This document shows, in pieces, positions 134 to 58,893 of a stretch of DNA of 64,000 bases (its first letter is position 1; each line of letters starts with the position of its first letter). The notes under the pieces are model-generated. The model saw nothing but the letters and a program-made list of their open reading frames with translations, made no database searches and was not told the origin of the DNA. A program made the translations under genes and the position numbers. Source of the DNA: Aplysia californica. Taxonomy: Eukaryota. Location: NCBI RefSeq assembly GCF_000002075.1, contig NW_004797643.1, forward strand, positions 33,085-97,084, written 5' to 3'.

Positions 134-3070
134 AGCGGGATGGAACTCTACGACCAGCCCAGCCGGGGCCAGCAGGACTATGACGTGCCGCCCGTCAACC
201 GAGGCTCGGTGGACAGTGGTGGGGGCGGGGCCCTGAGCTCTCGGCGGCCGTCACGTGACTCACTACGTAGTTCCGGCGGTTCTCGCGCTGCCTCACTGGG
301 TGATGATCTCTACGACACGCCCCCTAGCAGCAAACGTGGCTCGGCGGAGACTGCTGGGGGCCTCTATGACACTCCCCCTAGTAGCAAACGCGCTTCTAGC
401 GAGAGGACTCCGCCACACAGCAACCGCTCGTCTGCCTCACGAGAATCTGGGGGTTCAAACCTACTGACTGGTGCCGGTTCGGGGAGTCAGCTGTCCCTGA
501 GTCAGCAGCACAGCGCCAGCAACATGAGCCTGCCCACCGTAGTGAGGAGACGGAGTGGTTCGCACTGCAGCGAGAACTGCTACGAGACGCCGCCCGGGAG
601 TAACCGGTCTTCTCTGGAGAGAATCCTGTCGGAAGAAGGACCTCCGATCTACGACACACTGTCGCCCGCTATCTCGAGCGAGCAGCTGGAGGCAGGGGAA
701 GCAACCTACGACACTCCGCCCACGCGGACACACACACTGTCCCAGGCCAACCCAGCCTCTCAGATGAGCCTGCACTCTGCGTGCTCTAGCGAGTCGCTCC
801 TGTCCAACACATCAGGCGTCAGCAGCGCCCAGCTCTCCCACTCTGCCAGTCTTCCTGACTCCGCCCGCTCCTCTATGGACCTCCCGGCAGAAACTTACGA
901 CGTGCCACCATCTTTACAGGACGGAGAGAAGTCTCGCAAACAGCTATCCACAGATTCAGGTCTGGGTTTTTACGACAGTCCCGTCAAATCTCGTCCATCG
1001 TCTTCCACACCCAGACATTCATCAGATGGTCTGAAGTCCTCTCAGTCTTCATTTGACTGCAAACCCTCGCCCGGGGTCAAGGACATCAAGCGTAGTAAGA
1101 GTCTGGAACATGCCTTAGATGACTTGTACGATGTTCCCAAAAATAACGCTCCCAAAATCAACCTGAAGAAGTCGATGACGTCGACCGGCTACGGCTCCAA
1201 CTCGGCCATCAACGACCCCTCAGGCGTGTACGACATCCCCCCACAGGTCACCAGAGATTCCGTTATCTCCATGAGATCTGACTCTTCGGATGAGAACCAA
1301 CGATTTTCCTCCTCCAGCCTTGACCTTGAACAGCACCTGTCGGAGCTTCCTCTCTGGGATGAGCTTCTCCTGGATGTAGACTCGGCCCTGGAGGTTCTGG
1401 TCAAACGACAACAGGACGTCAACAAAGCTACCGGACGCCTGGCTGGCTTTGTCAATGGCTCATGGCGGTCACGCGCCAGTCTAGAGAAGACGCTGTACGA
1501 CATTAAAGTGTCTTGTTCTCTTGTCAAGAACTCGTTACACGACTATGTCAGTTTCTCTCACGGGGCGGTGGCCAATGCGGCCAAGTATGCTGACCGGCAG
1601 CTGGCCATGCGCCTCAACAAACTGGTGTCCCCCCTACAGAGCACACTGGAGTTTGTCAAGAGATCCTACGCCAACCTGGAAGACATGAAGTGGCAGGTTT
1701 CTCTTCTGGCCGAGCCCCTGGACAAGACAAAGTCTGACGACCTTGGACAGATAGCGCTGGTGGCCAAAGACCTGATGCCAGAGGTCAAGAAAGTCTCTGC
1801 CTTCATCCAGGGCAACAGTTCCTTCATATTCCGAAAGTCTCCTGGAGTCGATTCCAAGAAAGCAGGAGTGTTGTCTAAGCCTCCAATTGGTCCAAAAGCT
1901 GGGGAGGTAGGTGGCGGGAGAGGAGGGCTCATGTCTGGTTACGTGAAGCCCAAGAACATGCAGCACCGCCCCCTTCCTGCCGTTCCAGGTAGTGAGAAGC
2001 CCAACTCCCCTTCCGTGCCTTCATCCTCACAGCCAGTGCAGTACCCAAAACCCAAAATGTCTATGTACGACATCAAGGCGGAGTTGCACAAAGACGACTA
2101 CGCCGAGTGCGACGACCTTCCCGAGGTCACAGACTCTGACCTGAAGGACGTAATGGAGCAGTGTGTCCAGGAATACGACTACGTACAGTTGGACGCCCGT
2201 GACTCGCCGCCACCACCACCCGCCGACGAGTCCAAGACAACAGGACTCGATACTGAAGACTCTGTAGATGGCCTTGTGGCAGGGGAAGAGGTTCGAACCC
2301 CAACCAACAAGAACTCACAGGAGGACAGCAAAGTTGAGGAGACAGGTGTGAGTAATGTGGCTAATCGCCTGGCTGGTCTGTCTGTGTATGACGCAGACGT
2401 GGACATGGTGCCGGTCAGAGACAGTGGCGCTGGCGAGCCGGTTGTTGCTGAAAATGTGGCATCTTTGGGAGAACTCAACAACAGTTCTGCCGAGGACAGA
2501 GTCCCAGCAGCAGCTCAGTCTGAGGGTTGTGTCGACTCAGATAACTTGCCAGAGCCGACATCTCCAGAATCGGACCAGAAAACTCCCGTAAATGTTGAAA
2601 GTTCTGAGGAAGCTTCTAACTTTATCCTTCCTTCGGCCAGCCAAACACCCGGCGAGCCGGAACCTCTTGACCCCAACGATCGTCAGGTCCTGGCCTATTA
2701 CACTGACCAGATCAACACCCATTCCACTCTGCTGGCCAATGCCATTGACGCTTTCATCGGTGTGGTGGGGAGCAACCAGCCTCCCAATGTATTTATATCC
2801 CATGGAAAGTTTGTCATTGTGTCGGCGCACAAGCTGGTGTACATCGGCGACAGCATTCACCGCAACCTCATCAGCAACAGCATCAGCACTCGCATCATGC
2901 ACTGCGCCAACAACCTGTGTGACTGTCTGAAGGCCTCAGTCACCGCCACGAAAACAGCCGCCCTCCAATACCCATCTGTACCAGCCGTGCAGGACATGGT
3001 GAACAAAGTGATAGCTGTGTCACACGCAGCCCAGGACCTCAAGCATGTTATAACCCAGTCGGTCAAATAG
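134..3070 (+). CDS. BCAR1: Terminal coding exon of a CAS-family adaptor (p130Cas/BCAR1/NEDD9-like); SH3-encoding exons lie upstream of the window
   Basis: Acceptor tcttccccag|AGC at 133/134, phase 0. About ten YxxP motifs (YDVP, YDTP, YDIP and others), a serine-rich four-helix bundle, RPLP and YDYV Src-binding motifs, and a C-terminal FAT-like domain (QPPNVFISHGKFVIVSAHKLVYIGD; TKTAALQYPS). TAG at 3068-3070. Confidence 0.92.
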   Translation, partial: SGMELYDQPSRGQQDYDVPPVNRGSVDSGGGGALSSRRPSRDSLRSSGGSRAASLGDDLYDTPPSSKRGSAETAGGLYDTPPSSKRASSERTPPHSNRSSASRESGGSNLLTGAGSGSQLSLSQQHSASNMSLPTVVRRRSGSHCSENCYETPPGSNRSSLERILSEEGPPIYDTLSPAISSEQLEAGEATYDTPPTRTHTLSQANPASQMSLHSACSSESLLSNTSGVSSAQLSHSASLPDSARSSMDLPAETYDVPPSLQDGEKSRKQLSTDSGLGFYDSPVKSRPSSSTPRHSSDGLKSSQSSFDCKPSPGVKDIKRSKSLEHALDDLYDVPKNNAPKINLKKSMTSTGYGSNSAINDPSGVYDIPPQVTRDSVISMRSDSSDENQRFSSSSLDLEQHLSELPLWDELLLDVDSALEVLVKRQQDVNKATGRLAGFVNGSWRSRASLEKTLYDIKVSCSLVKNSLHDYVSFSHGAVANAAKYADRQLAMRLNKLVSPLQSTLEFVKRSYANLEDMKWQVSLLAEPLDKTKSDDLGQIALVAKDLMPEVKKVSAFIQGNSSFIFRKSPGVDSKKAGVLSKPPIGPKAGEVGGGRGGLMSGYVKPKNMQHRPLPAVPGSEKPNSPSVPSSSQPVQYPKPKMSMYDIKAELHKDDYAECDDLPEVTDSDLKDVMEQCVQEYDYVQLDARDSPPPPPADESKTTGLDTEDSVDGLVAGEEVRTPTNKNSQEDSKVEETGVSNVANRLAGLSVYDADVDMVPVRDSGAGEPVVAENVASLGELNNSSAEDRVPAAAQSEGCVDSDNLPEPTSPESDQKTPVNVESSEEASNFILPSASQTPGEPEPLDPNDRQVLAYYTDQINTHSTLLANAIDAFIGVVGSNQPPNVFISHGKFVIVSAHKLVYIGDSIHRNLISNSISTRIMHCANNLCDCLKASVTATKTAALQYPSVPAVQDMVNKVIAVSHAAQDLKHVITQSVK

Positions 3071-58744: not shown

Positions 58745-58893
58745 TTAAGAGTCTTTTCTCTGGCGTTTCTCTCTCCGACTCCTCAGCTCCGCCTTCTTGC
58801 TAGGGTCACTTTTAGCTCCATCATTGTCAGGGAAGATAATTTCTCTGACAAAGCGAATTTTGGAGAAAAACAGGTGCCACATGATCATCCAAG
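58745..58893 (-). CDS. SMIM13: Last coding exon of a small integral membrane protein 13-like gene
   Basis: Minus-strand acceptor ttttcattttcctcag|CT, phase 1, then WMIMWHLFFSKIRFVREIIFPDNDGAKSDPSKKAELRSRREKRQRKDS*. This resembles the SMIM13 motif WYFVWHLFLSKFKFLRELV as I recall it. The upstream transmembrane exon was not identified in the window. Confidence 0.8.

What the first reader, a model, noticed from the sequence alone, without database searches (positions are those of the whole stretch)
134..58893. CAS gene and SMIM13 lie tail-to-tail, as human NEDD9 and SMIM13 do
Seen: a CAS-family gene on + and a SMIM13-like gene on - converge, about 56 kb apart. Recalled knowledge: on human 6p24, SMIM13 is the convergent neighbour of the CAS paralog NEDD9. 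Inference: this is an ancient bilaterian microsynteny, with WDR76 and ZFAT either inserted here or lost from the interval in vertebrates. It predicts a TMEM170 gene near the 5' side of this CAS gene, as seen for NEDD9-TMEM170B and BCAR1-CFDP1-TMEM170A.
Basis: partly seen in the sequence, partly recalled or inferred. Interest (0 to 1): 0.7.

Follow-up and report, generated by a model that had tools for sequence, protein, structure and literature searches.

The report
Snail CAS–SMIM13 neighbours, likely coincidental
In this sea slug the cell-adhesion gene CAS and the small membrane-protein gene SMIM13 point towards each other across two other genes, as their human counterparts do, but among the other animals checked they are close in only two related snails, so this is likely a chance reunion of two genes from one ancient chromosome rather than a gene pair kept together since early animals.

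Summary
A CAS terminal exon (134-3070, +) and SMIM13 exon 2 (58893-58745, -) converge 55.7 kb apart, with an intronless WDR76 and a ZFAT-like gene between them. The animal is a euthyneuran gastropod (100% match to an Aplysia californica protein).

The reading 'ancient bilaterian microsynteny' is only partly supported. I could place both genes in 9 other assemblies, using contig length and accession order as proxies. They are close in 2 (Lymnaea, Bradybaena), on one chromosome but 43-705 accessions apart in 3 (amphioxus), and on different scaffolds in 4 (two sacoglossans, Batillaria, one amphioxus).

The TMEM170 prediction fails in this genome: TMEM170 and CFDP1 lie on other scaffolds. CAS-CFDP1-TMEM170 is, however, an already published bilaterian block, and that table lists SMIM13 only in a vertebrate block.

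CAS and three other genes of this scaffold belong to chordate linkage group D. Most likely (0.6) the pair is a euthyneuran block that met independently by shuffling within that linkage group. A truly ancestral pair, lost repeatedly, remains possible (0.33). Low interest.

The parts
134..3070 (+). Terminal coding exon of the single CAS-family gene (YxxP substrate region, serine-rich bundle, C-terminal domain). SH3 exon is on another scaffold, G000:C376:344292-344098.
16028..18100 (+). WDR76-like gene, whole coding sequence (690 aa) in one exon, single copy in the genome
29398..52959 (+). ZFAT-like multi-exon C2H2 zinc-finger gene (start codon is a candidate; upstream exons not excluded)
58745..58893 (-). 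SMIM13 exon 2, coding part with stop
57981..58025 (-). Three AATAAA hexamers downstream of the SMIM13 stop (candidate poly-A signals)
   Evidence: use not tested
58894..64000 (-). Part of the 9,443-base SMIM13 intron; exon 1 lies about 4.3 kb beyond the window end (C373:101505-101421)

Best explanation
CAS and SMIM13 are two separately spliced genes, likely from one ancestral chromosome (chordate linkage group D), that likely came close together in the ancestor of euthyneuran snails by ordinary shuffling within that chromosome, independently of the SMIM13-NEDD9 pair of vertebrates. The snail block was probably CAS, one gene (probably ZFAT), SMIM13; the intronless WDR76, which belongs to another linkage group, probably arrived later as a retrocopy. 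The ancient neighbours of CAS were CFDP1 and TMEM170 (published), and this sea slug has lost close linkage to them. No shared transcript or antisense overlap is expected: the two 3' ends lie about 50 kb apart with two genes between.
For: Shown: close in Lymnaea (CAL1545756 / CAL1545758, one 377,897-base scaffold) and Bradybaena (BsWGS_15706 / 15708-15709, one chromosome). Not close in 7 of 9 other assemblies: different scaffolds in Plakobranchus, Elysia marginata, Batillaria and Branchiostoma belcheri 2016; same chromosome but 252, 43 and about 705 accessions apart in three amphioxus assemblies. A break by assembly alone inside a 60-kb interval has a rough chance of 1-13% each. Where a 3' neighbour of CAS was visible in metagenome loci (3 of 31) it was CFDP1 (L068, annelid-like), RABIF (L069, bivalve-like) or an ABC transporter (L082), and no SMIM13 was found in 31 of 31 loci. 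PMC8851819 supplement 4 lists SMIM13 once, in a 'Vertebrata novel' block, not in the CAS-CFDP1-TMEM170 'Bilateria novel' block 2212. PMC10972751 file 6 assigns BCAR1, OXA1L, ATP6V0D, CHMP1, CFDP1 and TMEM170 to CLGD and WDR76 to CLGC; OXA1L, ATP6V0D and CHMP1 flank SMIM13 on C373. Gene order inside linkage groups is largely scrambled (PMC7269912). With my assumed inputs a human-mollusc comparison gives 2-10 chance pairs of matching orientation genome-wide.
Against: For this one pair, landing within three gene positions and convergent has a chance of only 0.10-0.25%, and real ancient pairs shared by vertebrates and molluscs number in the hundreds (PMC3514665), so the prior favours a real pair. 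SMIM13 sits on the same (3') side of CAS and in the same orientation as in human. One amphioxus haplotype has the genes only 43 accessions apart. Positions in other species are proxies (contig length, accession order), not coordinates, and orientation in Lymnaea and Bradybaena was not seen. SMIM13 is small and often unannotated, the published table needs three genes per block and is cut at about 4 million characters, and 30 of 31 metagenome loci have under 7 kb of 3' flank. SMIM13, ZFAT and AHCY were not found in the held part of the CLG table. No slow-evolving limpet, abalone, scallop, brachiopod, hemichordate or echinoderm could be tested for SMIM13.
Confidence: 0.6

Rival explanations
1. 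The pair is an ancestral bilaterian microsynteny: the ancestor had SMIM13 facing CAS, with CFDP1 and TMEM170 on the other side. Vertebrates kept SMIM13-NEDD9-TMEM170B on one ohnologue, euthyneuran snails kept the SMIM13 side and lost the CFDP1-TMEM170 side, and the link would be weakly held by CAS enhancers in or near SMIM13.
For: Same side and orientation as human; per-pair chance 0.10-0.25%; kept in three euthyneurans; same chromosome in 3 of 3 chromosome-level amphioxus assemblies, 43 accessions apart in one; the CAS locus does keep an ancient neighbourhood on its other side; SMIM13 is old enough, being present in Nematostella and Ephydatia.
Against: Needs independent losses in amphioxus (a genome that keeps most ancient pairs), sacoglossans, Batillaria, and displacement in the annelid-like and bivalve-like loci. 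Only two major lineages share it, against the four required by PMC3514665. No enhancer evidence was tested.
Confidence: 0.33
2. The linkage in the window is a scaffolding artefact: the CAS terminal exon was joined to the wrong scaffold.
For: The gene is split over two scaffolds, and C376 carries several unrelated genes downstream of the SH3 exon, so one scaffold near this gene is probably misjoined. Seven N stretches lie between CAS and SMIM13.
Against: Two independent assemblies put CAS two models from SMIM13. C373:1-33 kb and C376:300-390 kb are both gappy and poor in coding-like frames, as intron would be, which places the suspect join in C376 near 300 kb.
Confidence: 0.04

Closest known systems
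Vertebrate SMIM13-NEDD9-TMEM170B block (PMC5826361 fig. 3; block 9933 'Vertebrata novel' in PMC8851819 supplement 4)
   Same: A CAS-family gene and SMIM13 converge.
   Different: Two genes lie between them here; no TMEM170 on either scaffold that holds CAS; the snail gene is the single pro-orthologue of the vertebrate CAS genes, not NEDD9 specifically.
CAS-CFDP1-TMEM170 block 2212 'Bilateria novel' (PMC8851819 supplement 4)
   Same: Same CAS locus; CAS with CFDP1 and TMEM170 in amphioxus, Strigamia and four vertebrates, with CFDP1 in Lingula; CAS-CFDP1 also seen here in L068.
   Different: SMIM13 is not a listed member, and this genome has CFDP1 and TMEM170 on other scaffolds.
Conserved ancestral microsyntenic pairs, CAMPs (PMC3514665)
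   Same: Unrelated genes, at most four genes between.
   Different: Seen in two major lineages, not four; convergent rather than the head-to-head class that is most often conserved.
Macrosynteny with scrambled order, chordate linkage group D (PMC7269912, PMC10972751)
   Same: CAS, OXA1L, ATP6V0D and CHMP1 of this scaffold are CLGD families; SMIM13 shares a chromosome with CAS in amphioxus.
   Different: WDR76 is CLGC; SMIM13, ZFAT and AHCY were not found in the part of the table held.

Membership tests
CAS adaptor family | N-terminal SH3 domain | tested here: met
   SH3 exon on C376, 91% to Physella, joined to window 134 in contigs of 3 of 4 runs laid
CAS adaptor family | YxxP substrate region, serine-rich bundle and C-terminal domain | tested here: met
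   Repeated YxxP motifs in the translation; Pfam PF08824 and PF12026 over cut-off
SMIM13 (DUF4750) | Short protein, one hydrophobic segment, then the W-x3-W-x-(L/V)F-x-S conserved stretch | tested here: met
   Exon 2 hits PF15938 and named SMIM13 proteins at 83-85%; hydrophobic exon 1 aligns and is spliced. Exon 1 alone has no Pfam hit.
WDR76 | DDB2-related WD40 propeller with long N-terminal extension | tested here: met
   DDB2 chains give the best long single-stretch matches among solved structures; Atlas clusters named WDR76 score 0.97 against 0.93 for DDB2. No tree built.
ZFAT | Array of C2H2 fingers with ZFAT-specific finger sequences | tested here: inconclusive
   One finger matches human ZFAT chain 2elp at 39 bits, the only one of 10 chains with a single stretch passing; two other exons gave no ZFAT-first match. 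Likely orthologue, no tree.
CAMP (PMC3514665) | At most four intervening genes, non-paralogous | tested here: met
   Two genes between
CAMP (PMC3514665) | Conserved in four or more major lineages | tested here: not met
   Found in vertebrates and euthyneuran gastropods only; not close in amphioxus; most phyla untested
Block 2212 CAS-CFDP1-TMEM170 | CFDP1 and TMEM170 within five genes of CAS | tested here: not met
   TMEM170 on C258, CFDP1 on C820, CAS on C376 and C373; at least 414 kb of C376 lie 5' of the SH3 exon, with other genes next to CAS
Genomic regulatory block | Enhancers of one gene inside the bystander gene | not testable with these tools
   No chromatin or contact data; no orthologous snail DNA to look for conserved non-coding elements

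The most novel reading that the evidence does not exclude
SMIM13 is a fourth, overlooked member of the ancestral bilaterian CAS block (SMIM13 facing CAS, then CFDP1 and TMEM170), missed by genome-wide surveys because the gene is tiny; vertebrate NEDD9 and euthyneuran snails each kept the SMIM13 side for over half a billion years, hinting that SMIM13 carries regulatory elements for CAS.
Probability: 0.33. Interest if true: 0.4.

Novelty: new member of a known kind. Interest (0 to 1): 0.2.

Why it matters
If ancestral, it would add one gene to a published microsyntenic block and give a first hint about SMIM13, a protein of unknown function next to the cancer gene NEDD9. If coincidental, it is a clean example of why a two-species match between genes of one ancestral linkage group cannot be read as ancient microsynteny. 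Practical by-products: the full SMIM13 gene of this species, a corrected 5' end (SH3 exon) for its CAS gene, and a probable scaffold misjoin.

Tried and rejected
Genome search with PF15938 found nothing although the gene is there: the split exons are too short, so that blank was ignored. A 377-kb CAS intron (SH3 exon to terminal exon) was first noted and then rejected because C376:1-300 kb holds several genes. A SMIM13-like 18-residue frame in L082 (E 1.1) was rejected: it lies between stops inside an intron of an ABC-transporter gene. The two raw-read runs gave no depth on the SMIM13 exons; the tool warns such dips are no finding, and no holder was on record as RNA. SMIM13 records from Nematostella, Ephydatia, Varroa, Amblyomma, Musca, Eufriesea, Neocloeon, Aphidius, Uranotaenia, Lepeophtheirus and Arion had no CAS record of the same species to compare and were left out of the 9; 12 of the 30 proteins looked up were unnamed representatives, two of which had a named member. 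The SMIM13 profile search was dominated by unnamed transcript records. L068's record could not be searched beyond the part held. Supplements: none readable for PMC3514665, no hits in PMC9023564 or PMC7269912; the CLG table showed no amphioxus rows. Earlier-findings look-ups gave nothing on this pair. No structure or complex prediction was run: nothing here claims binding.

Full report
What is in the window. The window is G000:C373:33085-97084 on a 767,893-base scaffold. Bases 134-3070 (+) are one large terminal exon of a CAS adaptor gene with Pfam Serine_rich and CAS_C domains; it is 100% identical over residues 400-977 to a protein listed as Aplysia californica BCAR1 and is the only CAS_C match in the genome. 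Bases 58893-58745 (-) are exon 2 of SMIM13: Pfam DUF4750 E 7.9e-5, 83-85% identical to the three hits (Lymnaea, Bradybaena, Arion). A hydrophobic first exon lies at C373:101505-101421, and contigs of 2 of 4 runs laid join it to exon 2 across a 9,443-base intron with GT-AG ends. The stops are 55,675 bases apart. Between them, both on +, lie a single-exon, single-copy WDR76-like gene and a ZFAT-like zinc-finger gene; one finger matches human ZFAT at 39 bits where the fingers of the top-listed other protein reach 11, two other exons did not single out ZFAT.

The human side. PMC5826361 (passages read) states that SMIM13 and NEDD9 are tail-to-tail on human chromosome 6 and that the association is conserved in vertebrates.

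The TMEM170 prediction. The SH3 exon of this CAS gene is on scaffold C376 at 344 kb; contigs of 3 of 4 runs laid splice it directly to window 134 and the fourth uses another first exon that maps to C376:335 kb. 5' of it on C376 lie a C2H2 gene and a CD36-family gene (200 of the 414 kb were read). TMEM170 matched only on C258 and the CFDP1 domain only on C820. The prediction fails for close linkage; same-chromosome linkage cannot be judged from scaffolds.

Other species. No other animal genome is searchable here, so I used contig length and accession order from the protein collection as proxies (30 proteins looked up; contig lengths also). That accession order follows gene order is my assumption; it is safer for submitted annotations than for RefSeq. 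Both genes could be placed in 9 other assemblies. Close in 2 of 9: Lymnaea (CAL1545756 and CAL1545758, one scaffold) and Bradybaena (BsWGS_15706 and 15708/15709; a second CAS copy is on another chromosome). Same chromosome but apart in 3 of 9: Branchiostoma lanceolatum (252 accessions) and two hybrid haplotypes (43 and about 705). Different scaffolds in 4 of 9: Plakobranchus, Elysia marginata, Batillaria and B. belcheri 2016. A rough chance of an assembly break in a 60-kb interval is 3%, 13%, 4% and 1%. A quick tree (35 of the CAS proteins; careful search unfinished) shows caenogastropod CAS duplicates only in Nucella and Babylonia, so a hidden Batillaria paralogue is not indicated, though not excluded. 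A metagenome scan gave 31 CAS loci; none held SMIM13 under a profile that found both window exons, but only one has more than 7 kb of 3' flank. The visible 3' neighbours were CFDP1 then an NT5C gene (L068, whose closest CAS groups with Capitella at support 89), RABIF (L069, myid-like) and an ABC transporter (L082).

What is published. PMC8851819 (abstract, Methods part 1 of 2, search hits and one part of supplement 4, which is cut at about 4 million characters) lists block 2212 'Bilateria novel' with CAS, CFDP1 and TMEM170 in amphioxus, Strigamia and four vertebrates, CAS with CFDP1 in Lingula, and CAS with other genes in sea urchin; I saw 28 of its 36 rows in order plus three Strigamia rows. 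The SMIM13 orthogroup occurs once in the held file, in gar, in block 9933 'Vertebrata novel'. The method needs three genes, so a bare CAS-SMIM13 pair would be missed. PMC3514665 (abstract and Results part 1 of 3; supplements unreadable) defines ancient pairs as at most four genes apart in four or more lineages, finds 595, and says amphioxus and Lottia keep 448-492. PMC7269912 (passages) says linkage is kept while order is scrambled. PMC10972751 (supplement rows only, file 6 cut) assigns BCAR1, CFDP1, TMEM170, OXA1L, ATP6V0D and CHMP1 to CLGD and WDR76 to CLGC; SMIM13, ZFAT, NEDD9 and AHCY had no rows in the held part of that file. It also shows a CAS gene 41 kb from TMEM170B in hagfish. Searches listed no paper on a CAS-SMIM13 link in invertebrates; unseen supplements (PMC3514665, the cut parts of the two tables) could hold one.

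How it most likely arose. Beyond SMIM13, C373 carries OXA1L, AHCY, ATP6V0D and CHMP1. Of the 8 named genes on this stretch, 4 are CLGD, 1 is CLGC and 3 are unlisted. The scaffold therefore looks like a piece of one ancestral linkage group in a new order. For two genes of one group, landing within three positions and convergent has a chance of 0.10-0.25%; with assumed inputs (600-1500 genes per chromosome, 2000-4000 testable human pairs) 2-10 such matches are expected genome-wide. Real ancient pairs are far more numerous, so a two-species match starts as probably real; absence in amphioxus, Batillaria and the published block then pulls it down. My weighing is 0.6 for independent reunion and 0.33 for an ancestral pair; these are judgements, not computed values. 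Under either reading the link existed in the euthyneuran ancestor and broke in sacoglossans, so it is not tightly constrained. One model lies between the genes in both pulmonates; I infer it is ZFAT and that WDR76 (intronless here; multi-exon in human, recalled; other linkage group) is a later retrocopy. Neither step was tested.

Verdict. Real genes, real convergence, shared by three euthyneuran snails; ancient bilaterian status not shown and somewhat less likely than not; the TMEM170 prediction fails here although it describes a known ancestral block. A member, at best, of a well-known kind. Interest 0.2.

Noticed in passing
G000:C376:344292-344098 (L024) and window 134: The SH3 exon of CAS is on another scaffold and is spliced to the window exon; the listed protein P0005 has a different N-terminus without SH3. 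A second first exon maps to C376:335 kb.
   Followed up: yes
G000:C376, about 300 kb: Probable scaffold misjoin: genes with HSP20, short-chain dehydrogenase, MBF1 and Ras-family domains lie at 1-300 kb, where the CAS intron should continue into C373. Nested genes in a very long intron are not excluded.
   Followed up: partly
window 16028-18100: The only WDR76 of the genome has its whole coding sequence in one exon and belongs to another ancestral linkage group than its neighbours: candidate retrogene that replaced the parent.
   Followed up: partly
window 38461-38542 and 38629-38710: Tandem duplicate of a zinc-finger exon in the ZFAT-like gene (76 of 82 bases alike); the first copy lacks one histidine of the finger.
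   Followed up: no
L068:10001-21700: In an annelid-like contig CFDP1 lies 4 kb downstream of CAS and faces it, whereas in human it is upstream and codirectional (recalled): the ancient CAS-CFDP1 link survives a local flip.
   Followed up: partly
window 12064-14551: Short open frames that resemble pieces of a hAT-type transposase (recalled resemblance; no Pfam hit).
   Followed up: no
proteins P0298, P0299, P0312; P0029, P0066, P0030, P0036: Two CAS copies in Bradybaena (only one beside SMIM13) and in the neogastropods Nucella and Babylonia, as expected from their genome duplications (recalled).
   Followed up: partly
P0150, P0164: SMIM13 homologues are on record in Nematostella and the sponge Ephydatia, so the family predates bilaterians.
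   Followed up: no
L084:4357-4620: An INTS13/Asunder-like exon lies on the opposite strand 5' of the CAS match in another animal contig.
   Followed up: no
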